Of a stretch of 64,000 bases of DNA, positions 3,882 through 60,864 are shown piece by piece (position 1 is the first letter of the stretch; each line of letters begins with the position of its first letter). A program made the position numbers and the translations under genes. The stretch spans positions 930,001 through 994,000 of the forward strand of contig JAUFOQ010000004.1 in the NCBI GenBank assembly GCA_040285855.1, in the 5' to 3' direction. The notes beneath the pieces are model-generated. The model did no database searches. It was not told the DNA's origin and was given only the letters and a program-made list of their open reading frames with translations. The DNA comes from Eukaryota sp. GEM-RC1 (lineage: Eukaryota).

Positions 3882-4845
3882 ATGAACATTCTTGTCTTTG
3901 GTGCTTCTGGAAAAGTATGTCCTTGATAACATCTCATCACAGCAAGGAACTTCTCTCCTTGAATCACTTTTGAGCCACGATAACTTCTCCACGGTGGGAA
4001 AGGTTAGATGCTTCTGCCGTCACAGCAACGATCAGCTACAGGATGTTGTTTCCCGCTCCAACAACAAGTTCGAGGTCTTTGAAGGCAACATTGCCAACCA
4101 CGAGAACGTTCGTCATGCCCTTCAAGACATGGACACCGTTTGTCTGATTCAAAATCCCAAAGAATATGCTGATAATGTCACTGAAGGTGCTTCTTTGGAA
4201 TTCGAATACGGCAAAAGAGTCATTGACCAAGCCATTTCTTCCAATGTTCAGAACTTTGTCCTAACTAGCTGGGCTGCATGTTGTAGTGCCAAGGAGGTTC
4301 CCCATTTCCAATCTAAGGGCGGTCTTGAAAGCTACCTCCGTGACAATGGTAAATGCAACAAGAGCATTGTTAGACCAACATGGTTTATGGAGAACTTGCT
4401 CTTTGAAGAAGAACTAAGCCAACCCCTCCGATCTCAAAAGAAACTTTGCCTTCCGCTTTCTCCCAATGTTAAGTTACCAATGTGTTCTATCCGAGATTGT
4501 GGCCGAGCTGAAGCTGATTGTTGTTTAGATCCTCAAAAGCTTTCTCATCACAATGGCGTCATTGAAATCTGCAGTGATATCAAAACTCCACAAGAAATGG
4601 CTAGAATTCTTGGATGTTCTTTTGAACAGACCAGTTGGAATCAATTCTCTGATGAAGCTTTCCAAAAAATGTACCAGTATCTTGCTTCAGAACCTATTAA
4701 GCCTGACCAGGAATTTTGTAAGAGTTGTTGGAGTAACATGATGACCTTTGAAAACTTTGCCTCTCAAACTGGATTGCAGCAAGAGAAAAGAGGAGAAAGA
4801 ATTGAGGGACAAACTGAGCGAGGAGCTGGCGTCTCTAGAACTTAG
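3882..4845 (+). CDS. NmrA-like NAD(P)-binding Rossmann protein (two exons: 3882-3914 and 3943-4845)
   Basis: Splicing out 3915-3942 gives MNILVFGASGK|QGTSLLESL, a GxxGxxG-type Rossmann start. NmrA-type motifs VPHFQSK and IVRPTWFMEN follow. Confidence 0.9.
3915..3942 (+). other. 28-nt spliceosomal intron
   Basis: GTATGTCCTTGATAACATCTCATCACAG. Its removal restores the frame and the GASGKQG motif, which is uninterrupted (ASGRQG) in the paralog. Confidence 0.9.
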
Positions 4846-12274: not shown

Positions 12275-15200
12275 TTATTTCAAGAAACCAAAAGTATTCG
12301 ACATACTGAATAGAAGAGAAAATGCACAAAGAACCACCTCAATAGGACTAGTTGAAAAACTGATAAGTACAACTAGCACCAGGCTTTGAATTATGAAATA
12401 ACAGAAACTGTCAAATAGTGAAGCAAAAATTACAACAAAATAACAAATTAACGAAATGAAATGAGGAGAATGACGTTGCACTACCAACACTAAAATTACA
12501 AAAATTAAGTGAATCAACAGAAATACAATTTGCCACACTGATGGAGCTTCATGATCAAGAAATGAAAGTACTGTACCGAACAAAGAGTTGATTGAGAAAA
12601 GAACCGCTCCAAGTAAAAAAAGCACTATTATTCATAATAAAATTGGAAATATTAAACAATCTTGATAGTGTTGCTTTTGAAAGTCCACACAGTGAAATCA
12701 TCATAATAACAAATAAAATCTGTGACGAATCGAAGTGAAATATAGAAGATATGAAATCAATAGCAATCACCCAAATAGAAACCCTACGGAAGAAAATTGG
12801 AGGCAAAACAAAAAGATGATATTAAGAATATTAATGTAATTCGAAAATCGTTTAAACAATCTCTGTTGGCCAAATGAAGAAAGAGATGACGTGGTCATTT
12901 GAATATACTTGAACTTTGATTCAACAAGACATAATTGAATAACTAGCCTATCAGCAAGAAACAAAATGGAAATCAAACAAAGTAAAAATATCATTTTTAA
13001 CCAAGTATTTTCCTTACCAAAACAATAAATCTTGCTGAAAACAGCATCGTCAGTACAAAATTGACACAAATCTCCATAAGCATGACGTGATCTGCAAGAA
13101 TTCTCGTGACAACTATACCAAAACACACACTCATCTAGTTCCCAAGTATCAGTATTTAATCTAAAACCAGGTTGAATTCCAGTCAAATTTCCATATCCAC
13201 ATTCAGCTAAATGAGGACAAGGTAAACAAGACTCTTCAGCATCTAGAGAGTTTAAAGGACAAACACATTGGTCAAGATCGCTAGAACCCTTTTGAAAAGT
13301 TATTCTAGGAAAAGAACAAGATCTACATTCTGAATTGAATTCCGAATTTGAATAATAATTAAAAGCACATTCAACACATTCACCAAGAGAGTTGAATTCC
13401 ATTCCTTTGCACATAAACACCCATGTCCAGAATTCAATTTAGGAAAGTGACAATCATTTGTAACTAGATCGACAGTTGCAGAATGGGATAAATAGCAAAG
13501 GATAATCTTCATTGATTGGAGTGGATTTGTGACTATCTCCAACAAACCGCCATCTAAAATATTGATACCAACTTCGATATCAGTAACTAGAGTAATATCA
13601 GAAAGCAGAACTGCATTAGTAAGGTTGTAGAACTGTTCCTGAATTACAAACTTTGAGGTAATGTTCAAAAGAGTACATGATGGGTCTCCATAATATTGAT
13701 GTCCACAGTCAGATACTTTCAATTGATCAACAATTAAAAATTCTGCAAAATTTTGAATTATGGTTCCATTCCAATTCAAAATTCTAGAATTGAATTCGTA
13801 ATCAACACGATGTTCCTGTAATTGAGGTAATTCATTAAAGAAGAAGGTCACATCATCTGAATGGAAAGTGACAGAATTAAAAAGAAATGTTGAGGATAGG
13901 AGCGAAATAGACCCATTACAATCAACAACAAATCCAATATTATCGACACACAAAATTGGAATTGAAAGATTAAAATAATTTGAATTAACTTCAACAATGG
14001 TTTCACTGAAAATCAAAGAAGTCGCATCAGAAGCAGAAAAACTAATGGGAAAAGGTGCAAAAGAAAAGAAACAATTTCGTGAGAAGAAGCCAGTGGAAAA
14101 TTGAACAGTAGACGTGGACCAAAACATTTCTTTCTGAGAAATAAACGATTCAAACTGTGAAGTTGAATTAAATAATGAAGTTTCAAACTCCATGTAAACA
14201 TCTTCATCAATTACTTCCCCAAGGGCAGTAATACCACGTCCAAAAGAAAAGGGTTTAAAACAAGAATATGATCTATATCCGTAAATTTCTAATTCCAATA
14301 AATATATATTTTCAAGAGCAATTAAAATAATTTCAGTTGTGTGTGGAATGATGATGTCAACAGTACACATTGGAAGCAAAAGCAAAACCACTGGGAATTT
14401 GTTTACAAGAATATGAAGGGGGAAAGAGTTTGATTGTTAGCAATCAGTTCAAAAGAAAGGTTATTATAAGATTCGAAACAACTAGTGTTGGTTGTGATCA
14501 CAATTTGAAATACATCATAAGATGAATCAAACACTATATTGATCGAATCGAATTGTGAGATAAACTCAGAACAAAAAGACACGTCAACGTTACAGCACCT
14601 AACACCATTGAATATTAAGTTATTCGTATAAGTGGTAGTAAAATTAATCCTAGGATGCTCGGCAAATGAAACAAAACAGACATCTTCGAGAAATGCTTCT
14701 CCTTGAATTAAGACTGAGTTGATGAGCACCCCATCAAAAGAAAGTTCTAGTTCAACAAACTCATAATAAGTTGAAATAATGACATCTTCACAGGACAAAG
14801 AATTGTTAGAAGCAACTCCTAAGAATATTCGAGATTCAATAGAACAAGTTAAATTGGAGTTAATAACGCCTCCAACATTTATGAAAATTGTACGATGTTC
14901 AAAAGGACTTACAAAATCTGTAGACGAAGCTTCAATATCGAAAACAACAATAACACCAACATGTTGTAAGCTAAATCCAGACTGTTTCCAAGACCAATGG
15001 TGATAGCTTTGTCCTTTGGAAAAGTTTAACGATGATATATTAAACACGTAAGTTAATGCAAAGTTCGAACTTGATATGTCATTAACTTCAGTAGGATGTA
15101 CAACTACATTGTTGGCCAGGAATAGGGAATCTGGATAGAAGTCACCACTATACGAGAAAACTATGGTTTGAGGATTGGCTAGCGAAATCACAGAAGAGCT

Positions 15201-18200
15201 CAGCAATTCGAGCACTGGGGGTTGGTGAACGGAAACTCGATGCACAAAATTGAAATTTGCTTGGAAATACATAACAGTGAATGAAACTTCAATATTGTCC
15301 ACTTTTAATCCAACAAAGTTAATTTCAAAACGATATGAATTACCAGATACAGTACTTAGTTGACAATCATCAGAACAAGCAATCGAATACAAATAATTGG
15401 GATCAGCGATTTCAATTTGAATTGTCTGGGACACATTGACTTCCATTGATGATGGGATGTTTTCATTAGGAAAAGAAGAAACTGTGCTAATATTGACTGA
15501 TTCTGACAGACTATATAAAGTAATCCAAGTACTAGTACTTTCAATATTTAAAATATTTACTCCTGGGTTGAGAAGGAATGAATTACTTCCCGACGTAACG
15601 AAAATATCATCGACAGACTCAAGCAAATAACACTCAACAACAGAATTAAAATAAACTATTGGTGGAAAGATTACAAAATTACCAATTTCTACAGAAAGAT
15701 GTTCACTTAAATGTCCAAAAGACAAACTCTGTAGGGTATAGTTCCCTGTTCTAGTAAATTCAACCTCAAAATACAGAGTAGATTTGTCAACAGTAAGTAA
15801 CTGAGAAGCAGAATTACTAAAGGAGAAGCAACGTTGAATAACTGAAAACCCATAAGAATCAATTCCTTCAATTTCGATAGACAGGCTGTGAGTAACTGGC
15901 CTTTCAAACCATTGAATGTACTTGGGGTAGATATAGGACGGAGACACAATAAAAGGAAGATTGAAAATAGAGTAACACGCAGAATCAATACAAATACTTA
16001 ATTCATTTGGAACTGTAGAAATAAAAGAAGTAAATGTAATTTTGGCAAATGATGGAGATACTTGGTAATTTGAAATATGAAGAGAGTTCGGAGAATTTAG
16101 TCCGATAAAGGTGTCAATAAAGGAAAAGTCGTTCTGAAAACTATAAACAGTAATTGTACACGGAATACCAACAAAACAAACATATTCAGTATTGTTGGAA
16201 ACAAATGAAGTTACAGGTATTGAAATTAGGCGGGTGAATTGAGGAAAGAATTCTACTAAAATAACAAATTCAGTGATCCCATACAAGTCACTAGTTGAAA
16301 TTTGCAATTCATCTTCATCAATAATTTCGTATGTAGCGCTTTGAACAGACAACTCAAGAGATGAATTTTGAAAACATTGATACATTTTTGAAAAATAAGG
16401 CCCAATTAGCACTATTAATTCCCCCCGAGGGAGACAATGGTGGTGCTGGTAGATAACTAGCTTGTGGAGGAGCAAGATTCAGTTGAAATAAATTACTGGT
16501 TTGGTTCCCAACAATTAAATAAATATTTAAAATATCAGAATTAATATCACAAATGTAGGGAATGTACAATGAAATTTCATCATGAGTGAAATTATTAATC
16601 ACAACTTGAGAGAACCTGAAAGACAGTGAAAAGTACTCAAAAGAGGTTGAAAAATCAGAACCATATATTGAAATATGTCCATGTAAATGAAAAGGATCGG
16701 TTGACACGGACAAAATCACAGGTTTCTTGAAGCAGTGATCAAATGAAATGATGGAAGAATCTGTAGATCTAGAAAGAACCATTTCATGACAACCACGACC
16801 TTCAAAAAAGAATAGGTTTAAAATTTCATGATTATTTGAAGAATAAGCAAGACTTTGATTGATTGGAGCTGTTGAATGAAGAATAACAATAGGATCTAAC
16901 CCAAGATTAAAAGCAAACAGTGGTACAAATCCACCTCTAGTTGGAGGTTCTAGGCTAACAAACTCAATTGGACATATGGGAATGAATAAGTGATGGAAAG
17001 AAAATACTCTGGAAACAGTTAAATTCAAATAAATTGAATTATTCAATGAATTGAAAGATATAATATCATTTAAATAGAAGTCAAGAGAATTCAACAGGAA
17101 CTCGTGGAAGAATTCATCATTATTAGGGACTGAGAGTTCCAGTAATTCTGAAAGATATTCGATATTATTAAAATTCAGAGAAACCTTACAATGAGAGGTA
17201 TTACAACAGTGTTGTGAAGGGGAAATTGAAATATTTGCAATTAATTTGGAAAGATCTAACAATGGAGCATTACCAAGTACAATAGATTCATCATCTATAG
17301 AAAAAGACTTAGCAATCACTGGGAAAAATGACATTATGGTGATATTAGAATGGTTTAAAATCAATGAAGAAAAAAACAATTCCTTGTCAAAATCAAGTAA
17401 ATAGATGCAAGATTTTTCTAAATACAAACCCAATTTAAAATGGTTGTACGAAACACATCCAGACAGAATAGAAGTCTCAAGTGTTAGATAAGATTCAATT
17501 GAAATAATATCAAATGCTGAAGATTTGAACATGTAAAATTGACACACACTCATGAAAAATTGGAAGAAATTAGTTTTAGATCTGGTTAGAACCAAAAACT
17601 GGAGAAAGTCATAATTACGTATAATAATATTCTCAAAGGTACTAGTACTTTCTTTTGACTCTAGGAAAATAGAAGTTGAAACCAAATCAATGGTAACCTC
17701 TTCCATCCCCAGGGTAGAGTTATAAAACACAAGTGTACTATTATTAAAGGATGATGAACCAATGTTACCCAAAGACAAACTCAAGGACGAATCTGATAAT
17801 AAAAACAAGGTATCAAATAATGAATCCGTTATTTTCAAATTCTGAGTGGTAATTGAACCATTAACAGAAGATTCTAGTATACTTCCTGTGCAGTTGGAAA
17901 GAGAAAGAGAGTTGATGGACAATTCTGAATTGACTGTGTTCAGAAAGTTGGAGAAACTGGAATTAACAACCGACACCAAAGATATGATGACATCCTTCGA
18001 ATTGACAGAAGTGAAAACATCACCTTGTACACCTGATAAATTCAAATAATGTAAATTCAATTTACAATCCATCAAAATGAACCACGAAGTAAAAATTGAT
18101 AGGTCAACTTCAACAGTGTGTAAAGCAATAGTTCCAAAGCTATTGTAAACAAAGTTTTTGGCAAAAACTGAAGAAATAGTTAAATAATTTAAAACAATAT

Positions 18201-21200
18201 CAGATTGGTCTAACTGAAATATTGTTTTGCTATTAACCTCCGTTATTGATGAATGACTGAACTCAATAGATGAAGAAGAAGAAACAACCAAATTTTCAGT
18301 ATTCAAGTCAGTAAATATTGAATTGTCGACAAGTACAGACGATGAAGATAAGGAAATTAACGAGTCAGATAAGACACCAGAAAAGACAGAATTGTCAATG
18401 AAAAGTAAAGATTCAAGACAATCAAATAAAAGAAAAGAATCAATAACAAAATCACACTGTGTTAATGTTATAATGGATTTGTCAATTAAAAACAGGCTAT
18501 TATTAGAGACGGATTGAACAGTCACAAAATCAAAAATGATTGATGAATTCAAAATTTCAAAAAGAACCGTATTATGATAAACAATCAAATTATGGATCGT
18601 CAATGAAGATGAAATAATATCAAACAATGTTCCGTCAATTCCATCAATGATCACGTCACCAAGACCAATAACATCCCAATCAACATCAATTAATTTGCCG
18701 AACCCTTGACTAAGGAAATAGTAACCACTACGGAAATAAACCTTCCCTTTTCTTCCCATTCTTTCTAAAACTCCGTTAAAAGAAGCACAAGGACTGTCAT
18801 AAGTTCCACAACAAGAGTCATCAATACCTGCAGTAGAAACATAAGAAACTTCATTCAGCTCTACTACATAATCATTGACAGAGACAATTAAAGAAATTTT
18901 TGAATAAAAAGTGGATATAAGTGAAGCACAAGGATTAATTATACTACTAAATCTTCCATTAATTTGACCAGAATCTATGAGTGTATAATTTTGACTAGTG
19001 GAATCGGACTTTGTGTCAAAGTCTATTTCTAATAATCCATCTAAATAAGCAGTTGCACCAATGATTAATTGAGTAAAAGAAGTTACATTATCGATTTGCA
19101 GTGATACGATGGAAGAAGGAAAAAGAGAAAGATTCTCTTCGAACGTGAAGGTAGATGAAGGATAAATTCTTCCAAAACTTGATATATCAGTAACAATAGT
19201 GCCGAATCCCGTTATAGTTTGATATTCATTGAGGACAATAAGTGTAGAAGAAGAAAAAGTTGAATCAAAAACGCTCAGCGTGTCATTGAAAGTGAAAGAA
19301 ACAAAGGAGATATTTACAAAGTGTTTCATTAAAACATTGGAATGACAAATGATGGACCCACTAGAGGACTGGAATTTGGAAACTGACACGTCATCAAGAA
19401 TCACGTGACTGAAGAAATCCACGGAATTAGCCAATTGGACTTGACCAGTGATCAATGAAGTGTCTACTGATTCTAGAACAATTAAAGATGTCGAAAAATT
19501 TCCAGAATGAATTTCACAAAACTTGTCAATTCTCATCGCACCAGCCCCTAGAACTTGACAGAAATAACATGTGAAAGTCTCAACAACTATTTCAGCATCA
19601 GATGATGACTCAAGAGTAGAAAACGACAAATTTAAAATATTATTAGGATCGAAATACAAAAGATCATACTGAAAACGGCTGTAAATAGCAGTAACATTAA
19701 AGCTTGATGACAAAATACCAACAGAGTGATCACACACGAGCTCACTTGAATGTAGGGTAAAGGAAAGTGTAGGAGATCGAACTTTGCTATGGTCACTTAA
19801 TCTCATGACTGAATCATATAACTCAAGGTCTGATAACTGTTCAAAAATTACACCTTTTGATTGAAGGATCGAAGAAGTTAAGGAGATTGACTTAAGAAAG
19901 AATGAAGTTGTGGTAAACTGGACTGAAGAATCTATAAATGAGAGTCTTCCGTTGCCAAAAAGTCCCTGAAATATACCTGAAGCAAGCTTACTAATATCAA
20001 CTTCAGTTAGAACTCGAGAATAAAATTGAATCGCACGGTATTTCCCTTTAAAAGGAGTGTTATAAGCTGGGACTACTGATGAAAGTGGGAAATACGACGG
20101 CGCCCCATCAGAACATTCGTACGGATCGTATGGATGAACAACATCTCCGATTTCAGATCCGTTAACATACACACGAGTAAACTGCTGATTAAAAGTGAAG
20201 ACTAAATTCATCCATTGGTGCATAGGAAGAGAATCATAAGTAATAGAGGATCCCCAGTAAAGCCTCTGACCTGAAAAGTGGAGTCTACAAGGACTCGAAT
20301 ACCTGAACCCTGCATCACCTTCCTCAATGTAGATCCATAACGATATTGAAGCGTCTCTCCAGCCATGAGGCTCGAGTATGTTGGGAACATAGAGGGTATC
20401 ACCAGGTGCAACATCCAGATATCCACCTCCACTGTCACGTTTCCATTCAGGTCCATCAATTATGATTGCATTAAGATCATGATTGCCTGATAAGTCAATT
20501 GTGCTGGGAGAGTACAACCAGTTATAGTAAAGGAACAAATCAGGGTCAGACGAGTCAAGAACTTGTTTAAGAGTAAATGAAGACGAAGAAACAGAAAACT
20601 CAGCGTGTTCTTGGAGATGAATAATATTGGAAGAATTAAATGATAACAGTGTTTGGAAAAGGAATGCGAATTCAGAGTAAACAGTGCGTAGTTTGAGATA
20701 TCAAAATTAGACCGAAATGAACAGTATTCCGACAACACAAAATTGTTGTAAAATTTTAATTCACTGGAAAAAACATCAAGAGAACCAGACAAAAAAAGAG
20801 AAGACGACGGAGTACACTTAACAATTACTGAATCAAAACTGAATTGAGAATTAGTTGAATGTAATGTGAGAGAACTATTAAAAAAGACCGCCTCTGTAAT
20901 TGTCAATGATTCTACTAGAAAAACCTTATCGTCACCATAAAGATTGATGACGTTTACTTTAGCTGAACTTAGAGTCAAGATGCCATCAAACCAATGGATA
21001 ACTGATGCTTCTAAATAACCGTCACTAATAAAGTCACCATTTGACAAAGAAAGAACATCAAAACGAAGTTCCAAGGTAGTTGAAGTAAATGAAGAAGAAT
21101 CTAACTCAAGATTGGGAAAGAAGGAGTCAGCAGAAAGAAAACGGCCCTGAAGTTCAAAAGAAGAGTGGTCCTTAACAATGCTATTGAAGACTCTTAATAC

Positions 21201-24200
21201 AGCAGACGAAACAATAAATAAAGATGAATTAAAAGAATAAAGACTCTTTAAACTTAACGTTGACAATGAGTTTACAAGAAGAGAAGAGTTTTGTACAATG
21301 ATAGATCCATCACCATATAAATTAGATAGAGATCGGAATTGAGTGTAAGACATCGCTCTAACTTCAATGTCAGATAGTTTCTCTGAGAAAACAGCAACTC
21401 TTCTAATTCTACCTTTAAAAAACTGATCAGAAGATGGTACCCAGTCATTACCACTCTTGTAATAGAGAGATCCCAGAGAGAAGAAATCAGGAAACTCATC
21501 ACAATCATAATTACCGTTAACAGAAGCCATCAGAGCCCCATTGATATACATTTGAGCTCCACTATGATCTGTAGTAACAATCAAGGAAATCCATTGATTT
21601 CTTGGAATCGACAGATCTTTAATGGTTACGTCACCAAGCGATAACTGATCTCCAATTACTAATCCACAACCGGAAGGATTAGTACTAAATCCAAATCTAT
21701 TTGTAGGATCAGAGTCAAACCAAATGGAAAATGCAATTGTAGCTGATTCCCAGCCGAATGTAATATTTGGGATTTTGATAATGTCAGTGAAACTTTCAAA
21801 TTGGTAATAACCATCGGGATTCCATTCAGCACCAGAAACTTCTAGTACATTATTATTATTACCAGAAAGATCATTTCCAGAAGGACTATTTGACCAATCG
21901 TAATAAAGAAACAATGGAAAATCTGATCCAAGTGTAGAATAGGAGGAAATGATTTCAATTTGCGAATTCTGGTCTAATTCAATATTTGAATTTAAATGAG
22001 AGTCTACACGAAGAGTCAAAGAAGTGTTGAACAATTTAAAATTTCCATCAAATGTAACAATAACATCCAAATCAGAATAGAAAGATAACTGTGGTATTTC
22101 AATTACTTCATTAATTGAAAGAATTGAATCATTAGTCAGATTAAACTCGACATTTAATTCAGAAGTCATCATTTTACCTATAGAAATTCTACTTAGTTTC
22201 AGTTCAGGATTAGAAGAACATAACACCAACTTGTTTACTTGCAATTCCCCAATTCCTTCAATTGTTCCACAAAACCAATACAAAGTTTCAACAAAAACAT
22301 TAGACTCTAATGAAAGAGTTGAACATTCAGAAGCTCCTAAAATCAGTGAAGTAAAGTAGGTTTCCTTTGGAGAATTAATAGACAAAAACCCATTTGAATT
22401 GAAATCAGACAAGAAAATGATAGAATCAGTGCTTAGATTCAATGTTCCAGAAAGAAACACTGGAAGAGAAATTCGATTAAACTGTTGAATACCAACACTG
22501 TTAGATTCTCTTGTGATTAGGTTGTGTTCTTCCAATGTCAAAATTCCATTATTAGATGATGATGTCATCATGTTGAAAATCATGTCAATCGAAGTATAAG
22601 CAATGGTTGCCCTTTGATAAGCAGTAACATACGTAATTCCCTTACCCCCTAAAGTAGAAATCTTACCAGGAGTATGAGACTTACCTAGACTAGTGGTTCT
22701 ACCCAGCGATTGACTAATACTAGTACCCCAAGACCACACGTCATTGTTGACGTCAACAGCAATGGAATGATCTCTTCCTGTAGCTGCAGCAATCACGGTT
22801 CCGACCTCAATTACTGAAACTGGATCAAGAGAAGTTTCCTCATCACCAGTACCTAGTCTACCGTCTGAGTTCCATCCCCAACTCCATAGCTTTTGGTTAA
22901 CATCAATTCCAAGAGCGTGATTAAGAGTGGTGTCAATAAAGGTAAACTCAATATGACTAGCAAATTGAGTGAATGGGGGTTGAGATTCATCAGAAGTTCC
23001 TAATTTTCTTCCACAAGTCAGAGTAGTTCCGTCCTCTTTGGTGAAAAAAACAGCTCTACTTGCAGTAATGAATTTAATATTTTCCAAATATTCAATTGAC
23101 GATGGTACAAGAACATTCATTGAACTTTGGGAGCACAAAATATTAAATACGCCATTTCCCCATCCAAATACTTTACCATCTCTAGTTAAAGCAAATATTG
23201 TGGAATGTCGACCAGCAATTTGTTTAATAGTATTTAAACTTTCAATTAAACTTGGGGAACTTCTGTCAATCACATCTCCTAGCCCTAATTCTCCATTGAA
23301 GTTCCCTCCCCAAGAGAACACGTGACCAGAAGCAGTTAAAGCAAAACTAGAGTTGTGAGATGAGAGAACTTGAATAATATTGGAAAGTTCTATTTTGTCA
23401 TGGACAGTTCTTCCTTCACCATTATATCCTAGTTGACCATAAATGTTACTTCCAGCTGTGTAAACGTCACCATTTGTTGAGAGTACAAGAGAATGTAAGT
23501 TGCCGAGAGAAACTTGTCTTATAGAAACATGAAGAGCATATGATTCAGGGGAAATACCATCAGACGAAGTTTGCAAGTCTCCTCCAAGTAGACCATTAGA
23601 ATTCAATCCCCAAACAAAAACATCATTGGGATCCTGAGAAAAGTCGCTATAAGGGGAGGAGAAAGAAGTAGAATTGACAAGAACAAGTTCACCAAAACCA
23701 TCTACATCAATAAAACCACGTTTCCAGTCAAATTGACCAGTGACTATGAGTGTAAGAGAGTAAATCGTAAGATAATCAGAATCCATGGTGAAAGTACGAA
23801 CGGAAGTAAAGGAGTTATGGGATGAAAGATTAGAGAGGAAGCTGCCACCATTGACGACAAGCTCTCCTGATATCGTTAATGTAGAGTTGTGTGTGAACAG
23901 GAGCTCTACATTAGAAGAAAGAGTGAGAGACGATATGTTAACATCAGCATCCAGAATCACTGTTACTGCTATCGTTTGAGGGGGGAGAATAACTGAAGAA
24001 TATGGAGATGGGATCTGTGCGGTGTCCCAATTGTTACTATCCAACCAATAACCATCAGAAGTACTATTCCATCGATGGACTGGAAGCAAAAGTGCACCAA
24101 CAAAAGAAGAACACCCCAAGAAACATGGTTGATTGGTTATAATAGCAGCATTAGCTTGTAGAGGAGGAACAGAGAAAGACTGAATCATGGGATAGAGTTT

Positions 24201-24275: not shown

Positions 24276-24426
24276 ATCTCTTCAGTCTATCCACTCAACA
24301 GATGAATTCCACAAATGGACGACCATTGTTCTCTCTGAAAAAAACCTCTCTGTTATCGCGTTATTTTACAACGATGTACATCAATGGATTTCTACTTGTT
24401 TATTCAAACTAAACTGAATAGATTGA

Positions 24427-27400
24427 CTATTTTTTAGTCTTTTTTTGTATAGTTGTAGGTGCAGACATCTTCTTAGGTCTTCTCAGCTTCTCAGGTCGTT
24501 GGTTTCCTTCGATGTGGGATTTGGTAATGTGCCAAATGTTCAACGCACTATTGGTGTCTCTATTCCAAAAGACACCACACTCCTTGTTCTGACAATGAAG
24601 CAATCCATGGCAAGGAACCATTTTTGGAGAAGTTTTAATTCTGGTTTCCTCTTGAATTGTTTGTGACAGCTTTGCTTGAATTTCATCCTTTTCTTCTTCA
24701 CTTAATGCAATGGTATTTTTTGCATTCATACGAATCTTATTTTTGAGCAATTTTTGTTTCCGTTTAAGTCTCTTCAACTCATTCGGGTCTTTGACTTTTA
24801 TGTCACTGACAGTGTCACCATCCCTGTTAGCAAACACACAAGCAGCACATTTTTTTACTGGTACGGAATTCGTCCACCAAGTAAACATAAAATCCAGCTC
24901 TTCTCAAAATACTTCGTAAAAAAGCACCTTGAACTGTAGGTGCTTTTCCTTTCGATGCCTCTTTGCATCCCAATTTCCAAATCCAATGACGATATCACTG
25001 GTATTCTTGTGAGTATCGTCACATAGTTTGGATTTTAGACGATCAATCCAATCAGCCTCAGATTTTTGATTGTTCATGTAGGCCAAAAGTTTGTTTCTTC
25101 GAAACAATTTAGAGTGATATACAGGGAATAGAAGTTCGTCGTGTTCAAGTTTGGCTTTGCAGTAAGATTGAAATTCGTTTAGAGTCAAACACTTAGCTGA
25201 AAATTGTGATAAGTACAAGATTAGATCTTCGACCGAGAAAGAGCTGACATTTCCAATGTCTGGGACAAATTGAAATGTTTTTATCAATATATCCTCTTCA
25301 TCAATTGTTTGCCACAGTGTTGTGGTGTTGGAGTTTCGATCCAAAACGAACGTAAATTGGTTTTTGAACTCTTGTGCAGACTTTTTCAAACTATCAGTCC
25401 TTCTTTCAAATTTTCGGCGCCCAGCAGTGTAAACATCAGTCACCCATTTGTTTTTTTGATTTCTTAAATGATGACTTTTACCAGTTTCATGAACTTCAGA
25501 CTCGTCAAAATTTGTTTCTTCTCTAATTCTGGACCGTTGATCTTCGGCATGCATTTTGGATTTTTCTGTTCTTATATCTTGCAATTTTAAAAGTTCTTTC
25601 TTTTTACTGTACAGAGCTGGCCTTTTAGTTTTTAACTGATCCTTCAAGACATATGGGATCTGAGGTCCCGTACGTTCTGCGATCAAATACGCTAGATCGT
25701 ATTCATTTGGATCTATACCAGCTATTTTTTTGTTTTTCAAATTCTCAAGCTCTAATTTAGACAACTCGTCAATGTATTTTTCTTCGAATTGCCTGGCAAC
25801 GCCATCACAATTTTTCAGGTCGTTTCTCTTGAGTTGGACGGAAACTCCAAAACCATCGGTTAACATACCACAATCGAAGAAATAGTTGTTTGAATTTGAT
25901 TGTATAGCCGTATGATTGTCATTAATAACGCGACTCCATTTTGCCGTTCTAGAATCAACATCATCAGAAACCACTTCATCACCAATCACTTCATCAGAAA
26001 CCACTTCATCACCAATCACTTCATCAGAAACCACTTCATCACCAAAGAGACCACAGTAGTTACCAATGACACCTAGAGTGGATGTATCGATTCGGATGTA
26101 TCCCGGTATTAACTCTGTTCTTTGAGGGAATACGTTGTATATGAACAGCGGCATCGGAACTTCTTCTTTTTCAGTAATAGCTGAAGCAATACATGCATTT
26201 GAAATTTTTGAAATATCACTCATCAGTATGTATGATCTTGAAATGTATTTTTGCCATTTTGACTTCAGTTCAGCAAGAGCATGTTGTTTTGGAAAGTCTA
26301 ACATACTGAGCATGGAATTAATAGTATCAAATTCAAAGGGATAGATGGTCTCATCCAACAGTTCATTTTCAAAAGCCAAACACTTGATTGACTTAAATCT
26401 TGTCATCAATTCATGTTTGATGAAGTGTTTTGCTTCATCAGTGACAAATTTGCAAAAACGAGTCCACAGTTCAGCAGTTACTTCTTCTCCATTTAGAACA
26501 AATTCAACCAGTTGTTGAATGTATTTAGGGAAGCTTAATTCTTTCCATAAATCAATTCTTTCTTCTTGTGACATACTAAGCAAACTAATTAAACAGCTCC
26601 ATTTTGTTGCAGATTTAGATCTCAGTAACTCATCGTCTTGAATTTCAGTGACGGTATCAGTATCCTTTAAGTGTTGGATAGCAAGAGGTTGAGAAACAAA
26701 AGAGTGGATTAAACGAAAGACATCAATTAAAGCATCATACGAAAGTAAGTCTATGGAGATTTGTTTAATTGATTCTTCAAATATTGTAAACTCCATTTTT
26801 TTGGCTGGATGAGTTTCAGGAGCATCAATGAATTCCTTGGTTCTAAGTGCAATATTTAGCCAGCGATTAAAGTGATCAGGAAAATGTGTTTGAATATTAT
26901 TCATAAACGATGTAAAAATTTCTGTGATCGAGTACTCGAGGATTCTAGAGCTTCTTTCGTATTTAGGACGAGTACTCGCATTTGGAAGGTTTGGAAAAAT
27001 ATTCAAGTGAAAGACATTGGCCATTTCAGAACGAAGACTTAATGTTTCCGCTCTTCTAATATTAAATGATACAAATTTTTGAATGTCAGGGACTCCGTCT
27101 TCTGAAGAAAATCTCTCAAATTGTTTCTCAAACATAGCTGTGACCCAGATTGCCGCACGCACAACTTCCTCTGTGAACTTGACTTCAATCGCCTTTCCAC
27201 AATTTTCAAATTTTGTAACAAAAAGAATTTCAGCAAGAGATATGTTCTTCGAACAATTAAATCAACATCGAACACAATAGTCTCGATTTCCATTTTCAGC
27301 TTGATGGGGTTTACAAAATTTTCCAAGCCGCATTTGATAATCTTGTAGTGACTGAGTTCTAAAAGGTGTTGAATTTTGGGATCCAAGAAATATCGGAAAA

Positions 27401-28316
27401 GTTCAGAGGTCATACTGTTTTCATGGCAACACTGAAGAATCAGTTGCTGGTCGTGGTAAGATTCAATTATTACATGATTGTAGTTTAGCCTGAGAAGCTG
27501 GGTGACCAAGATTTCTAAGCTATTCCTACCACCACAATTGTAAAATTTGGAAGCAACGCTGTGTGTATCAAATATGTTAAAAACTTTTTCACATTTTGAT
27601 AGTTGTTGAAAAATAAAGAACGGGATATCAGCAAACCTTTGGTTGATATAAGCAGAGAAATTGAAATTTGGTTGATAATGGAGAAACCGCTTCATCAAAG
27701 AAGGCATGTCAAAAGTCAAAGCATTGTGCCCAACAAAAAAGATAGGCAGATCCTCTCCTAAATAAGACCAAAATGCATTTAGCATATCAAACTCACCTTC
27801 AAATTGAATAGGAGTAATGTTGTCAAGTCTATTAACAGAATAAGTAGTGAGAAGGCAAGAATCAGAAGGTTCAAATGTATTTTGGTTTAAGCAAAATGTA
27901 TGAATGGCAATAATGGTTATTTCATCTTTTTCAAAAACTGGTTCAGGAGAACGCTCGAAATGTTTCTTCTTCAATTCTGCAACTTCAGAAGCATCCAGAA
28001 ATTGCTCGGCTTCAGAGATGAGTTGTTGCAACGAAGGAGCTTCGGAAATTTGAAGGTCAATCGAAGATTTTTCTTTGGAATTAAGTCGTTTTTTGCCTAA
28101 GTTTTTCTTCATTGCTTTGCTTAAGATATCAGCAGCCCAAGATAGATTCTGATTCAATTCAACATTTGGATTGGTCTTTATGGAAATGAACCAGATTTTG
28201 TGTGATTGATCATGCAATATGTAAGGGAGTTCTAAGGACTTTGAAAGTTTGAAAGGTGGAGTCAGACATGAAGACTGTTTGCTCTCACGTTGAATTGCTT
28301 CTTCCAGTGACATCAT
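24427..28316 (-). CDS. Fanzor1-like RNA-guided RuvC nuclease (~1,296 aa after 3 homopolymer corrections) with an N-terminal PolB-type exonuclease-like domain
   Basis: RuvC-I IAGIDPN (D at 25711-25713). IVIGFGNW, then the restored VYLVDEFRTSKKCAAC (E at 24869-24871). Zn finger/RuvC-III HGLLHCQNKEC..WNRDTNSALNI (D at 24556-24558). Terminal RPEKLRR. Fanzor-type FPQRT..IPGYIRIDT and LTDGFGVSV. Confidence 0.9.
25961..26045. repeat. 30-bp in-frame tandem repeat (~2.8 copies) inside Fanzor
   Basis: TCATCAGAAACCACTTCATCACCAATCACT repeated; encodes GDEVVSDEVI units on the - strand. Confidence 0.95.
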
Positions 28317-28375
28317 ACAATGAACAAAATGATATTTATTTACAGAAATTCTAAAGATAGACCAATACTGTAGAT

Positions 28376-29576
28376 CAATGTTCGAAGACATGCATGGACA
28401 CCTTTGAACACGCAGACATGTTTGGACACGGACACTGTGTCTTTTCAAAAACACGCAAACACGTCTTGGACGTGTTTTTCTGTAAAAAACCTAGAAAACT
28501 TCGAAAGTACCCTTCTATTTCCCTCGATATTGTTTAACTTGAATGTTTTTCTACATGTGATACCAAAATAGACTACAATGCGAGCAAAAAGTGGAAAAAA
28601 TACTGAACCTATTGCGCTCTCAATCACCAATTCAACTCAACAGAACCACTTGATCCAAGATTCAGTGATGACATGTCAGGAAAAGGCAAGAATTGGGCCA
28701 AAACGACGTTTTAATAATCAAACTGTGTACCATGGATCAGAAACCGTTTTTGGGGCTTTTATAAAATCGACCTCATTGACATCTTCTGTTTACAAAATCG
28801 GGTCACTATTTACAAAACAGGGTCATCAAACCTCTTCCAACTTTTCTGTATCTACTGGACATCACTGTTCTCAAACTTCATTCACTCTTCTCTTCAACTA
28901 CATGCTTTATTGACATAAAAATATAAAACTAATATACTCTACATGAGAATCCGGTCAAGTGGTGATGGTTCTCCAACATAGTTGGGGAAATCCCATTCCT
29001 CCATCAGTTTTTCATCACATTTGGACGGTTTGTTATCATCATCTTCAACAACATCCTCGTTTTCATGCGCTTCTGATTTACATCCTCCATCTATCTCACA
29101 CAAAGAAATCATCAACTTGTCGAGCTCATCATCATCTTCATATTCTTTACGTGCCTTTTTTCTTCCATGAAGGTTAGATCTATAGTGTTTCTTCTTTCTC
29201 CTACCAGTTTTCTTTGAATATAAAAGTGGTAATGTTCTCTTCAAGTGTTCCATGTCCTCACTTAATTGTATGGGATAGAAAACTCCATAGTGATAGGCTT
29301 CTCGATAGTCGTTAATGGTGAAAAACTCAGAAACATAGGACTTTTGGTACACAGCAAAGTCAGGACAGGAAAATCCCAAGCGTTTTCTACATGCAAACAT
29401 AACAATTTGGCACGATAAGCCTCCATATAAAAGTCATAGTCATATAGGAATGATACTAATAACAGGGATTTGGGGACTTCGAAGAGAACTTGAATTGATT
29501 TCAAACAAACATACAAAAACACCCCAAAAAACACATCAAAGACACCGTGTGGACACGAGTGTTAACACCGACAATG
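28376..29576. mobile_element. ~1.2-kb insertion with 8-bp TSD carrying a MULE-transposase-like C-terminal fragment
   Basis: Perfect TSD CTGTAGAT (28368-28375, 29577-29584). Weak TIRs (CAATGTTCG / CGACAATG). GGACAC/ACACG subterminal clusters at both ends. Confidence 0.7.
28939..29430 (-). pseudogene. MULE/MuDR transposase C-terminal remnant (SWIM tail region)
   Basis: GLSCQIVMFAC resembles the SWIM GIPCxHxxAxC end. It is followed by YVSEFFTINDYREAY..YPI and a basic GRRKKK segment, the usual MULE C-terminal order. Confidence 0.6.
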
Positions 29577-34502: not shown

Positions 34503-35485
34503 TCATCTAGAAATTCCAGTAGCTCTCTGTTCCTGTTGCAGAGCTTCAACGCCCTTCTCAATGAAGTTGTTCCACCCAGTAGAGTTGATAAAGCGATCAA
34601 AATCAACCAAATTTGGGAAACACTTTGAGCAATAATCTATATCTGGATGTACTGGCTGACTTTGCAAGTATTCGTATTGTTGCTGATACGCGGAATCTGA
34701 TAGTTCACTCATTGGTCTTTGTTCAAACGTACATCCTAAACGTTGAGCCATTTCATTAGGAGTTTTCCTATCACTAACTACTTCAATAATGCCATTGTGA
34801 TGTTCTAATTCTCCTGGAATAAGACAGCAAGAAGCTTGAACTCGAGCGACATCTCTGATGCTACACATAAAGAGAGGGCAATCACCAGTTAGTGGTAACC
34901 GTAACTTCTTCTCCTGTCTGATGGAATTGGCGACAGATTCATCATAAATCAAGTTCTCCATCAACCACGACGCTCCTACGGTGAACTCAAGCATAATCAC
35001 ATACGAACAATGTTCTTCCTTGAGAACGTTCCATGATCTCTCAGATATGATTCAATTTTACACTTCGAATGATAATGCGGAACAGTCACAGCAGAACAAC
35101 AAGCGGCCTGACTGCCACCATACACAAAGTTGAAGACACCAGCTTGGTTTGCCATGTCAATAATCTTCATACCCAACTGTAACTCAGCAGAGGAACCTTC
35201 ATTAAGATTCTTTCCGTATTCTTTTGGATTCAAGAGCAAGCAAACAGTGTCCATACCATTCATTGATTGTTGTATGTTTTCTTCATTTCTTAAGTCCCCT
35301 AGAAAGAGCTCGTACTTACCATTGGACTGGGAGATCAAGGAGCGGAGATGAGGAGTTTCGTGACTGCAGAAACATCGTACTTTAGCTACTTTGTTGAACT
35401 TGGCGTGGTGGCGCAGTCCTTCAAGGAAGTTGGTTCCTTGACGACCACTGGCATCAAACAGAAGAATATTGAATGATGAAGACAT
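34503..35485 (-). CDS. NmrA-like protein, paralog of 3882-4845 (exons 35485-35005 and 34975-34503)
   Basis: MSSSFNILLFDASGRQG start. Splicing gives NIVR|ASWLMEN, matching SIVRPTWFMEN. Colinear similarity over the full length. Confidence 0.9.
34976..35004 (-). other. 29-nt spliceosomal intron
   Basis: GTATGTGATTATGCTTGAGTTCACCGTAG. Its removal joins the two ORFs in frame and matches the paralog with no gap. Confidence 0.92.
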
Positions 35486-37735: not shown

Positions 37736-39263
37736 TCACGAAGTACTAGTCTTAGATCGCAAGAACCTTCTATATACTAGTTCTACATTATCTCCAACTG
37801 AAACTTCTGAATCTCCATCAATCAATCGTATTTTGACCTTACCAGACTTTCCAAAAGTAGACTCAATCACACCAGTCATTTTACAATCACCCACGTAGAC
37901 GGTCTCATTCAAAAACACTCTAGCTTGAGGAACAGAATCAAACATGCCCCTCATCACTAAATTCTGACCGTCAATCACGCGATCAACAACTCCCGACTTC
38001 GACTTTGTCTTATACAATGACAAATTATTCCCAATAATATTAACTTCACCATAGAAAGCTATCCTACACTGTTTAGAACTCTGAGGGAAATCAAGACGAG
38101 AACAAATAGCCAATCTAGAAGGAGGTACTAGTACTGGTTTAGATAGGGAGACCAGGGCATAGCATTGTGATTTAGCATCTTGATAGTTGTTTAATATCTC
38201 ATAGACTTCATCTGAGAGCTGGAAGAGACTTTCAGAGGCTTTAAACAGCGAGACTCGTCCTACAACTGTATCAAAACCAATCGACACGTGATAATTTTGA
38301 CCTGTTACTATTTCCTGTTTGAACCACGGAACTTTGTTGACTTTTTACTACAAATGATTCAACCTCTAATAAACAATCACGTGAGCTTGTGAGCCAGAAC
38401 CTATCCAATTCAGTAGAAGAAACATCAAGACCAGAGATACAAAGACCAACACGATCACCAGATACTGCTTTCGAAACTTGTTTTTTAAACGATTGAATTG
38501 ATTTAACTTTAACTGGATTCTGTTGAGCTGACAGCACAAGTTCGTCATTTAGAGAGACAACTCCTTCTAGAACAGTTCCAGTGACAACGTTACCCTTGCC
38601 TTTAACTCCAAAGCAATGATCAATGGAGATGATACAGGGAACATTGGAGAAATCAGAAGAAGTAAGGGTTTGAATACGAGGTAGAGTGAGAACAATGGAT
38701 TCTAGGATGGCTAGGAGAGATGTAGTTTGATCAGGTAGGGGAGAATGAGTGGAGAAAGGGATGATAGGGGCCGCAGAGAGGAACTTTGTCTTGTTTAGAG
38801 CTTTAGAGATGGAGGTCTTGGCTTTTTGAATGTAACTGTCTCTAGAATCTTCTGGGAGTAAGTCTATTTTGTTGAGAAGAACAACAGATGGCTTACACAT
38901 GATTTCTCCCAAGACTATACACTCGCCAGTCTGAGTTTGGATGCCTTTGGTGATGTCAATGACTAGAATCATTAGGTCGATGATGGAGCTTCCTCCGATG
39001 ACAGTTCGGAGGAGACTAGCATGACCAGGGTGATCCACAAGGGAATATTGGAGGGACGAAAAGATGTTTTCAAACTGAGAAGGAACTGATGAAGAGAAGG
39101 AAGAGAAACCTAAGTCTAGAGTGATCCCTCTGGATTGCGCCTGCGGGTCTTTGTCAAAACAAGCAGTAGATTGAGTTTGGGAGAGAAAGCGGGCAATGCT
39201 GGTTTTACCACTGTCAACATGGCCAAGTAGACCAATGTTACAATTGAGGGGGTTTAATACCAT
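37736..39263 (-). CDS. EEFSEC: Selenocysteine-specific translation elongation factor (eEFSec/SelB); one apparent extra A at 38342-38346
   Basis: NIGLLGHVDSGKTS, STACFDKDPQAQSRGITLDLGFS, VDHPGHASL, DHCFGVKGKGNVVTGTV, and C-terminal CRIAFYG and GVIESTFGKSGKVK. Removing one A gives VNKVPWFK..YHVSIGFDTV. Confidence 0.93.
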
Positions 39264-39371
39264 TGTCCAGGTGTAATAGCAATCTGCAACAATTGAATTA
39301 AAACTGAATTTCCCTTCAATCCGTTTAGGGTCCTCTTCAAGCTTTTATAATTCTACTCAGCTTATTCTTTA

Positions 39372-51385: not shown

Positions 51386-52244
51386 TGCACTGTGTTCAGG
51401 ATGCGTTTCTCATCACATTTTCAGTATTTTTGGCCCTGATCTCTGAAAGAGTTCTTATAATAATATCAGATAATTATGTAGTTTTAGATCATAGCTGCCC
51501 ATGTCAGCATGACGTCATGACAACATAACATTAAATGCCATGCAAAAGTTCAAAAAAATACAACTTCAAAAGTACAGATACATTGTATTTGTATATTTTC
51601 AGTTGTACTTCTATTTGGCTCGTGTATTTGCCCGTGGGTAATAAGTCGAATCTGTCAATTGTTTGTCACCTCCATTTTCTAACGATATTTCTGTAGATTA
51701 GGTCTAAGCTGCAATGGTGATGAAAATCCACAAACTCTAAGAATCTTCAAAACTTAAGCCAACCGGCAAAAGACAGAAGAATTCTATTAAAACTTCTGAA
51801 AGATCACCCAGTGTGTGGTGTCAACGAGATAATCTCCCACCCTCCCCTATTGTATATTTGCAACAAATATGTGCGAATGCCCTTGAAATGATGCGCCTTC
51901 TCCAGTGATTATACACAATGCTACTGTCTCAACACAAACAATGAAATCTCAATTCAGGTCTATTCGTGTTTCAATAATTATCATCTGGTTTTAGTCAGGA
52001 AAGCAGGCCACATCTAACACCAGCATTGTTACGCAATCCATGTACAAAATAGAAGCAATTCTGTTTCATTAACTCGATTTGCATCATAACTATTTAGCCC
52101 TTGTTAATTTATTGACAGTGAAACTCCAGTCACACTCTTCGTGTTGAAGATCAACACAAGATGTTGTGTAGAAATTTTCTATACAATTTCTTAGAAAATG
52201 AGTAGTTTTCTTGAGCAACAACTAACACGTGAGATCAACCCATA

Positions 52245-55200: not shown

Positions 55201-55260
55201 ACTTCTGTTGATTTCAGTGATTGTGATCTGCCTAATTGCATTCTGAATCTATGTATGAAA
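52245..55260 (+). CDS. RNI-like leucine-rich-repeat protein with multiple frameshifts (sequencing errors or pseudogene)
   Basis: Repeated NxTLxxLxL motifs (NNTTVTEL, NTSLLVLNL, NNSLSSVEF) and an internal duplication (~54220 vs ~54855). Confidence 0.75.
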
Positions 55261-55953
55261 TTTAGATCGAAACGGTAGCTTCGAAAATATTTACGTAAAA
55301 ACCCACCTAGTTTTACAAGTCAGACATATGCCCAAATTTGTTAACTACTTATCACAACGTTGTATAAGAACTGTAGCACTCAGGAAAGCAACCACAAAAA
55401 GTGAATATTTATTGTTTTGTTTATTGTGTGATCGAACAATGAATATATGCAATCAATTATTGTATTGTAGTGTATGCAGAGTGAGCAAACACGTGTTAGT
55501 ACGTGTTGTCACGTGGCCAAAATCCTTAACACAACTTGAACGACTGATCATAGTATGAAATAAAGGGAGTATGTTGATTGTTAAGGGATAAAGCCACTTC
55601 AATAATGCCATTAGCGAAACATTTCGAAACGTTAAGAATTCGACCAATATTGCCAAATAAATTTGATAACAAATGTCAAAGCTGATTTTACTGGCACTTT
55701 GTGACCTATAATTGAAATATCCATATATGCAACAATATCTAAATCGTTGAATTTAGGTTTTTAACCAACCAAAATTGAATACAAAGGAAGATAAAACAAA
55801 AAAGGGGCTACAGGATCTCCTACGGTACGTTTAATCAGTGTCGATATTTATTTCACATTTATCTTCCACTCTTTTATTGGAGCAAAAAATTTACATTGTT
55901 TTATGAGATGACCTGATTAAAGGTCTGATAACACTACAAATTTTGAACACTAA

Positions 55954-60856: not shown

Positions 60857-60864
60857 GTCCCAAT

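What the first reader, a model, noticed from the sequence alone, without database searches (positions are those of the whole stretch)
24427..28316. Very large Fanzor nuclease fused to a PolB-type exonuclease-like domain
Seen in sequence: three adjacent - strand ORFs become one 1,296-codon ORF with three single-base homopolymer fixes (+1 nt at ~27210, +A at ~24951, -A at 24850-24856). These fixes also reveal the hidden motif GKAPTVQG..RRAGFYVYLVDEFRTSKKCAAC, so all three RuvC acidic residues and the CxxC..CxxxxC finger are present. The first ~320 aa lie in the same uninterrupted frame as the Fanzor N-terminus (YKIIKCGLENFV..IVRRTYLLLKFFLL). They show the PolB proofreading-domain pattern in order: FISIKT, DEITII, FEGEFDMLNAF, VGHNALTFDMPSL, FDT, NSLEIL..LL, QCCHEN. 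Established knowledge: Fanzors are omegaRNA-guided TnpB-derived nucleases and are usually much shorter. Inference: this is an exonuclease-domain-Fanzor fusion, an architecture I do not recognise as described, which may bind or process DNA ends or the guide RNA.
Basis: partly seen in the sequence, partly recalled or inferred. Interest (0 to 1): 0.93.

Follow-up and report, generated by a model that had tools for sequence, protein, structure and literature searches.

The report
Fanzor nuclease with built-in proofreading exonuclease
This is a broken-up copy of a gene for a Fanzor (a likely RNA-guided DNA cutter of eukaryotic transposons) joined to a DNA-polymerase-type proofreading domain; intact relatives in another protist keep both active sites, which would let one protein cut DNA and likely trim the loose end so the transposon can be copied back, while this copy's trimming site looks degenerate.

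Summary
The fusion is real. Window ORF1 carries Pfam PF03104 above its cut-off, in frame with the Fanzor1 N-terminus. Read through three one-base breaks (X at each), the 1,295-aa product is colinear with intact, single-ORF 1.39-1.49k-aa relatives from a second protist. Six of those 10 proteins keep all three exonuclease motifs (DEDDy) and all three RuvC motifs. The window family and that family group together in a tree (SH-aLRT 99), apart from 40 ordinary Fanzor1s.

(1) The window's own exonuclease lacks an intact ExoI and has ExoIII YxxxD changed to QxxxE, so it is probably dead. (2) The first break is shared with a 94% identical second copy, so whether this copy is intact in life is open (about 45%).

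Best mechanism (inferred): during RNA-guided homing the exonuclease trims the displaced 16-17-nt 3' strand back to the insertion junction. I found no natural Fanzor-exonuclease fusion in the papers searched. The intact relatives also start with a 2A ribosome-skipping motif. Verdict: new variant of Fanzor1.

The parts
27348..28316 (-). N-terminal part, aa 1-323: PolB-type 3'-5' exonuclease (DEDDy-fold) domain, catalytically degenerate. ExoI candidate FISIK (28190) or SIDLQ (28064), ExoII GHNALTFD intact (27731-27708), ExoIII QCCHE (27434-27420)
   Evidence: Pfam PF03104 27.4 bits, above cut-off 23; PHROG polymerase hits; alignment with P0170 and archaeal PolB P0165; coordinates
27213..27347 (-). 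Fanzor1 first WED strand and first REC helix (YKIIKC...RRTYLLLKFFLLQ), in the same open frame as the exonuclease domain
   Evidence: aligns with P0170, P0007 and P0008; Fanzor1 profile match begins at aa 320
27206..27215 (-). Break 1: one-base phase break in an A4/T3 context; the same phase break is implied at the locus of the second copy P0001
24958..27210 (-). Fanzor1 REC/WED/RuvC-I body with lineage-specific insertions; RuvC-I Asp in GIDP at 25713-25711
   Evidence: 285 hits at E<=0.001 among 1.84 billion representatives; weak PDB hit to GtFz1
25936..26055 (-). 15-nt tandem repeat coding (V/I)GDEV/VSDEV, an acidic insertion in WED
24942..24957 (-). Break 2: one-base phase break just before GKAPT
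   Evidence: sister protein P0042 reads RKGKAPT through in one frame
24857..24952 (-). Hidden frame with the RuvC-II Glu (VDEFRTS; E at 24871-24869)
24850..24856 (-). Break 3: A7 run between TSK and the first zinc-finger cysteine
24427..24849 (-). C4 zinc finger (TNB) with a long helical insertion, RuvC-III Asp (NRD; D at 24558-24556), and stop codon
   Evidence: weak PF07282 and NF040570 hits
24280..24460 (-). Expected place of the omegaRNA scaffold and element end; not demonstrated
   Evidence: whole region z -0.6; best of 36 windows z -2.4, not significant after multiple testing
28939..29433 (-). Upstream multicopy ORF resembling the C-terminal tail of a Mutator/FAR1-type transposase; possible remnant of the carrier element (lead only)
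   Evidence: two further copies in its 90% cluster; ESM Atlas SWIM/FAR1-like clusters at 0.86-0.88; no Pfam hit

Best explanation
This is a transposon-borne Fanzor1 gene fused at its N-terminus to a family-B-polymerase-type 3'-5' exonuclease domain, and the ancestral protein likely cut empty insertion sites under RNA guidance and then likely trimmed the freed 3' strand so the element would be copied back, while the window's own copy likely keeps only a degenerate trimming domain. Shown: the fusion, its colinearity with intact relatives, both catalytic sets in those relatives, and the degenerate exonuclease motifs here. Inferred steps: (1) an omegaRNA from the element's 3' end guides RuvC to the empty site. 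(2) Fanzor1 cuts the displaced strand 16-17 nt beyond the TAM (SpuFz1, PMC10432273), which leaves a free 3' single strand on the TAM side. That strand does not match the donor, where the element follows the TAM. (3) The exonuclease, joined by a short linker to the WED strand at the TAM end of the protein, digests this tail back to the junction so the 3' end can prime copying of the element. In the window's subfamily the domain most likely only binds or caps that end, or is a structural relic.
For: Intact single-ORF fusions P0005, P0152, P0164, P0168 and P0170 (1,394-1,491 aa), with PF03104 at 45-49 bits plus PF07282 at 30-32 bits in the three scanned. PDB hits of P0170 to SpuFz1 (E 4e-8) and to yeast Pol delta exonuclease (E 2e-4). 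Six of 10 relatives hold FDVET, NxxxFD, YxxxD and the RuvC D/E/D. The domain is still alignable between window and P0170 (E 3e-6 over aa 171-320) although the Fanzor parts are only 22-27% identical, which suggests long retention under selection. The tree gives one clade. Precedents read as passages: T4 polymerase 3'-5' exonuclease and DexA affect intron-homing efficiency (PMC2988022); Pol delta proofreading can remove up to 40 nt from an invading 3' end (PMC10868807); restorative homing of OMEGA systems (PMC13565253).
Against: No activity data. The window's exonuclease lacks at least two of the four acidic residues and the ExoIII Tyr in both visible copies, so the trimming step cannot be general to the clade. 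Exonuclease-free Fanzor1s are the rule: 2 of the top 150 hits and 0 of 8 giant-virus loci carry the domain, so trimming is normally done by the host. Restorative homing is listed as shown for TnpB and IscB, not for Fanzor. In the one yeast test I read, a proofreading-dead Pol delta did not change the repair pattern. No omegaRNA, terminal repeats or target duplication were found. The position of the domain relative to the DNA is argued from general Fanzor1 layout (recalled), not from a model.
Confidence: 0.45

Rival explanations
1. The domain is a passenger or scaffold. It was captured once, is kept for folding, localisation or protein binding, and has no role at the cut.
For: Catalytic residues are lost in the window subfamily, yet the domain is retained. 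Ordinary Fanzor1s work without it.
Against: The full DEDDy set is kept in 7 of 10 relatives, that is all 7 that span the whole domain. The exonuclease region is the best-conserved of four regions among six copies (94.7% against 92.3-94.0%; a small difference).
Confidence: 0.2
2. The exonuclease makes the break destructive. It chews 3' ends after cutting, prevents clean re-ligation, and so destroys or mutates the target (rival elements, viruses), like engineered TREX2-Cas9 fusions.
For: The same domain order and intact catalytic sets in the relatives. Engineered precedent seen only as a search listing and abstract start (PMC13370227).
Against: A multicopy mobile context (10 copies in one species, several in another) fits selfish maintenance better than defence. 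No guide arrays were looked for or seen.
Confidence: 0.15
3. The domain matures the guide: it trims the 3' end of the omegaRNA precursor.
For: Some DEDD nucleases act on RNA (recalled). The fusion point is near the RNA-binding WED domain (recalled).
Against: All profile hits are to DNA-polymerase proofreading domains, which are DNA enzymes (established knowledge).
Confidence: 0.1
4. The domain serves transposition itself, cleaning excision footprints or element ends of a Mutator-like carrier, independent of RuvC cutting.
For: Upstream multicopy ORF with a SWIM/FAR1-like lead. DEDDh accessory nucleases are reported in P and piggyBac elements (passage in PMC3627910).
Against: No full transposase, terminal repeats or target duplication found here.
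Confidence: 0.1
5. On the state of this particular copy (a separate question): it is a true pseudogene, and at least break 1 is an inherited lesion.
For: P0001 has the same phase break, bridged by its gene caller with a 29-nt GT..AG skip. None of the three visible close copies (window, P0001, P0002) is whole. Three breaks in 3.9 kb is above the 0.8-1.5 expected from host genes (P 0.04-0.19).
Against: All three breaks sit at base runs. There is no in-frame stop in 1,295 codons. The other copies break at other A-runs. The host eEFSec gene is split at an A5 run, and a giant host gene has four run-associated breaks (junctions placed by my reading).
Confidence: 0.55

Closest known systems
Fanzor1 (SpuFz1, GtFz1, PpFz1)
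   Same: WED-REC-RuvC-TNB order, D/E/D catalytic triad with the late Glu (VDExRTS), C4 finger, multicopy eukaryotic context.
   Different: About 1,300-1,400 aa against 600-700 aa for most (PMC11423790; median 655 aa among 76 full-length hits). It has an N-terminal PolB exonuclease domain and large REC, RuvC and TNB insertions.
Family-B DNA polymerase proofreading domain (PF03104; Pol delta, archaeal PolB, herpes UL30)
   Same: DxE / NxxxFD / YxxxD order and the F.SE.ELL..F...D.I.GYN..FD.P core.
   Different: No polymerase domain. A roughly 45-aa acidic insertion follows ExoI in the relatives. Catalytic residues are degenerate in the window copy. The donor is unresolved (best hits: yeast Pol delta, an archaeal-type PolB, herpes UL30, all weak).
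T4 group I intron homing (homing endonuclease plus 43Exo/DexA)
   Same: A homing nuclease depends on a PolB 3'-5' exonuclease (PMC2988022).
   Different: Separate proteins there, protein-guided recognition, bacterial phage.
Accessory DEDD/DnaQ nucleases of eukaryotic transposons (P, piggyBac, LTR elements)
   Same: A mobile element carries a 3'-5' exonuclease (passages in PMC3627910 and PMC6338049).
   Different: Not joined to an RNA-guided nuclease; described as DEDDh or DnaQ-like rather than PolB-type.

Membership tests
Fanzor1 | C-terminal motif D-X(n)-[TS][TS]-XX-C4 finger-X-RD, with a RuvC triad | tested here: met
   Present after read-through and without any repair in P0170. The spacers are longer than the published range because of insertions.
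Fanzor1 | Homology to Fanzor1 along WED/REC/RuvC | tested here: met
   380 bits against a profile of 75 outside homologues; PDB hits to GtFz1 (window, E 0.005) and SpuFz1 (P0170, E 4e-8).
Fanzor1 | omegaRNA encoded at the element's 3' end | tested here: inconclusive
   z -0.6 overall; best window z -2.4 of 36; no DNA of other copies to test covariation.
Fanzor1 | Association with a transposon (multicopy, defined ends) | tested here: inconclusive
   Multicopy shown at protein level; no terminal repeats or target duplication found; Mutator-like remnant is only a lead.
Fanzor1 | RNA-guided, TAM-dependent DNA cleavage | not testable with these tools
   needs an experiment
PolB-type DEDDy exonuclease | Sequence profile match | tested here: met
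   PF03104 27.4 bits (window) and 45-49 bits (relatives), cut-off 23
PolB-type DEDDy exonuclease | Catalytic D,E (ExoI), D (ExoII), Y,D (ExoIII) in the window copy | tested here: not met
   ExoI reads FISIKTN or SIDLQ; ExoIII reads QCCHE; ExoII intact. P0001 agrees where it overlaps.
PolB-type DEDDy exonuclease | Catalytic set in the intact relatives | tested here: met
   FDVET, GYNCDKFD and YCxND in 7 of 10 proteins. ExoI is assigned by motif likeness to P0165 (AYDIET); the automatic alignment did not pair them.
PolB-type DEDDy exonuclease | RNase H-like DnaQ fold | tested here: inconclusive
   AlphaFold2 failed (pLDDT 36.9 and 34.0). ESM Atlas neighbours are PolB-exo/RNase_H_2 clusters at 0.87-0.89, a lead only.
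Family-B DNA polymerase | Palm/fingers/thumb polymerase domain | tested here: not met
   No such Pfam hit in the window ORFs or in P0005, P0164, P0170.

The most novel reading that the evidence does not exclude
This is a natural self-contained 'cut, trim and home' enzyme. One polypeptide makes an RNA-guided break and, with a captured polymerase proofreading domain, removes its own non-homologous 3' tail. It defines a protist-restricted Fanzor1 clade with two old subfamilies: one with a live exonuclease behind a 2A ribosome-skipping leader, and one (the window's) with a repurposed end-binding domain.
Probability: 0.4. Interest if true: 0.88.

Novelty: new variant of a known kind. Interest (0 to 1): 0.76.

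Why it matters
What Fanzors do for their elements in eukaryotes is still inferred from bacterial TnpB, and how the break is processed is unknown. A natural fusion with an intact proofreading exonuclease makes this testable in one protein: exonuclease-dead versus wild type should change the ends and the homing rate. It would also be nature's version of the nuclease-exonuclease fusions that genome engineers build. The intact relatives (for example P0170) can be expressed without any repair, so the test does not depend on the window's breaks.

Tried and rejected
No sequencing run was listed, which is no evidence either way.

Two AlphaFold2 jobs gave unusable models, so no fold search was run.

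Searches for more fusions:
- Window ORF2, 431-1,374 aa: only P0001.
- P0005 aa 255-640, 810-2,578 aa: two clusters of relatives plus one archaeal-type PolB.
- Exonuclease alignment, 202-648 aa: only the window's own protein.
- Viral contigs: nothing; two phage Pol A loci, of which I read one; eight ordinary Fanzor1 loci without the domain.
- Metagenome contigs: nothing in two scans.
These are word-based searches and miss distant forms.

Readings considered:
- A real 29-nt intron at break 1: disfavoured. It scores 41 against 74 bits, removes a conserved helix, and its splice ends (GTGTTC..AAG) are poorer than those of the 29-nt intron inferred in a host gene (GTATGT..TAG).
- A programmed -1 shift at A AAT TTG: possible but unlikely. 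G-ending heptamers slip poorly (recalled) and the relatives are in frame there.
- A hidden ExoI in another frame: none seen.
- Terminal inverted repeats or target duplication: none above chance (best score reached by 23.5% of controls).
- A 2A motif in the window: none in six frames.

The first tree run timed out and was redone with 44 rows. Earlier scan findings: none for this genome or sequence; four unrelated notes by words.
Full report
Setting. The window is eukaryotic. It holds RCC1, BTB, LRR and eEFSec genes (for RCC1, BTB and eEFSec; LRR by my reading) and at least one 29-nt GT..AG intron, inferred from an uninterrupted paralogue. The closest named records are labelled Eukaryota sp. GEM-RC1, TZLM1-RC and TZLM3-RCL. 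NCBI lists the two I looked up as unclassified eukaryotes.

Observation. Three minus-strand ORFs abut at 27039-28391, 24904-27135 and 24427-24888. A fourth short frame between the last two carries the RuvC-II glutamate. Joined with X at each break they give 1,295 aa with no stop. Against a profile of 75 full-length outside Fanzor1s, the joined protein scores 380 bits. The one-base shift at break 1 scores 74 bits, the 29-nt-intron alternative 41, and the unshifted frame 27. Breaks 2 and 3 read through score 190 bits, against 84 and 65 for the separate ORF ends. Homology pins break 1 between LLQ and FEN. The first 323 residues are in the same open frame as the first Fanzor strand and hit PF03104 above its cut-off.

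The fusion is old and intact elsewhere. A search of 1.84 billion representatives with ORF2 gave 285 hits, of which 150 were listed. One, P0005 (1,473 aa), is a single ORF with PF03104 (49 bits) and the TNB finger (32 bits). Its cluster and a second one hold 10 proteins from TZLM3-RCL. Five run unbroken from the exonuclease to the native C-terminus. Seven of 10 have all three exonuclease motifs, and six of 10 also have all three RuvC motifs. P0170 is colinear with the window read-through (22% and 27% identity in two blocks), and its PDB hits are SpuFz1 and yeast Pol delta exonuclease. In a 44-row tree the window protein, P0170, P0168 and the fragment P0042 form one side of a branch (SH-aLRT 99) against 40 other Fanzor1s. 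These are long branches, so attraction cannot be excluded, but shared insertions after GIDP and in the zinc finger agree. Fragments suggest that both subfamilies occur in more than one species: six are nearest the window type and one (P0067) nearest the P0170 type, among four references. Their N-termini are unseen. Outside this lineage the domain was not found: 2 of 150 top hits carry it, both in-lineage, and 0 of 8 giant-virus Fanzor loci.

Catalytic state. The relatives read FVSFDVET, GYNCDKFD and YCxND, a full DEDDy set. ExoI is assigned by likeness to AYDIET in the archaeal-type PolB P0165, not by the automatic alignment. The window keeps ExoII (GHNALTFD), but ExoIII is QCCHE and ExoI is either FISIKTN or SIDLQ. 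P0001 agrees from aa 68 on. Structure prediction failed twice. ESM Atlas neighbours are PolB-exo and RNase_H_2 clusters at 0.87-0.89, a lead only.

Is this copy alive? In favour of assembly error: all three breaks sit at base runs, there are no stops, and the RuvC residues are intact. The close copies break at other A-runs (P0001 near 26165, P0002 near 25780). The host eEFSec gene is split at an A5 run, and a giant host gene has four run-associated breaks (junctions placed by my reading). Against: P0001 moves between the same two frames at break 1 by a 29-nt skip, so its locus has the same phase break. None of three visible close copies is whole. Five host breaks in 12.9-25.4 kb predict 0.8-1.5 breaks here (P of three or more 0.04-0.19). 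From that count I left out the NmrA break (an intron) and the LRR and paralogue breaks that are not at runs and look like real decay. I put 'intact in life' at about 0.45. The architecture does not depend on it.

Element context. The ORF 600 bases upstream (28939-29433) has two more copies in its 90% cluster. It resembles the tail of Mutator/FAR1 transposases (Atlas 0.86-0.88; no Pfam hit). Fanzor1 in MuDR-like elements is described (PMC3627910). No terminal repeats or target duplication were found, and the omegaRNA region folds no better than shuffles overall.

Mechanism (inferred). SpuFz1 cuts the non-target strand after base 16-17 and the target strand after base 20-21 (PMC10432273). At an empty site, the TAM-side end thus carries a displaced 3' strand that does not match the donor, where the element follows the TAM. 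The far end needs no trimming. A single-strand 3'-5' exonuclease tethered at the N-terminus would remove exactly this tail. Precedents: T4 polymerase exonuclease and DexA affect intron homing (PMC2988022), and Pol delta proofreading can remove up to 40 nt from an invading end (PMC10868807; the same paper found no effect of the proofreading mutant in its own assay). Restorative homing is listed as shown for TnpB and IscB, not Fanzor (PMC13565253). Confidence 0.45. The rivals are scaffold (0.2), destructive end-chewing (0.15), guide trimming (0.1) and a role in transposition (0.1).

Literature. Searches: Fanzor+exonuclease+fusion (25 papers); Fanzor (174, 40 listed); TnpB+DEDD+fused (8); TnpB+DnaQ+exonuclease (3); TnpB/Cas12/domain fusions/exaptation (29, 12 listed). 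From the listings none describes a natural fusion. Term searches of main texts found no 'exonuclease' in PMC10711439, PMC3627910, PMC10432273, PMC10530073, PMC11423790, PMC13565253 or PMC10691335. I saw passages only, for these and for PMC2988022, PMC10868807, PMC3708506, PMC6338049 and 10.64898/2026.06.03.729735. Supplementary tables were not opened and subscription journals are not covered, so 'undescribed' is provisional. Most Fanzor1s are 600-700 aa (PMC11423790).

Side finding. All 8 TZLM3-RCL proteins that include the N-terminus carry LDGDVExN(P/L)GP about 170 residues before the exonuclease (7 NPGP, 1 NLGP). This matches the 2A signature GD(V/I)ExNPGP known from N-termini of non-LTR retrotransposon ORFs, where the motif alone does not prove activity (PMC3708506). 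The window has none.

Verdict. Observation confirmed; interpretation supported with corrections. New variant of Fanzor1; interest 0.76.

Noticed in passing
P0005, P0152, P0154, P0164, P0167-P0170 (N-termini): A canonical 2A ribosome-skipping motif (LDGDVExNPGP) precedes the exonuclease-Fanzor protein in 8 of 8 relatives with an N-terminus (one has NLGP). P0168 and P0170 start about 30 residues before it. Known from non-LTR retrotransposons; I saw no report for a Fanzor or DNA transposon in the passages read.
   Followed up: partly
window 28939-29433 (-): Multicopy ORF resembling the C-terminal tail of a Mutator/FAR1 transposase (degenerate SWIM region, basic GRRKKK patch); possible remnant of the carrier element.
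   Followed up: partly
window 34976-35004 (-): A 29-nt GT..AG intron in an NmrA-like gene (family name by my reading) whose paralogue at 3886-4845 lacks it. The organism appears to have very small introns, which can mask frameshifts in gene calls.
   Followed up: partly
window 37736-39344 (-): Selenocysteine elongation factor eEFSec, split by one extra base in an A5 run at about 38345; suggests selenoprotein machinery and assembly indels.
   Followed up: partly
window 12767-24188 (-): A probable single gene of about 3,800 codons (RCC1 repeats, laminin-G, IPT-like and cysteine-rich parts, C-terminal membrane helices by my reading) broken into five ORFs at base runs.
   Followed up: partly
P0067, P0042, P0108, P0003, P0006, P0012, P0016: Fragments show two Fanzor1 subfamilies of this clade spread over three named species; whether each carries the exonuclease is unknown.
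   Followed up: partly
window 61899-62948 (+): A 349-aa ORF with a C-x-C...H...C...RH-like motif and a restriction-like nuclease pattern, resembling the end of a non-LTR retrotransposon ORF (recalled); no Pfam hit.
   Followed up: no
window 52233-60945: A cluster of LRR paralogues; several are broken at non-run positions and look like real decay.
   Followed up: partly
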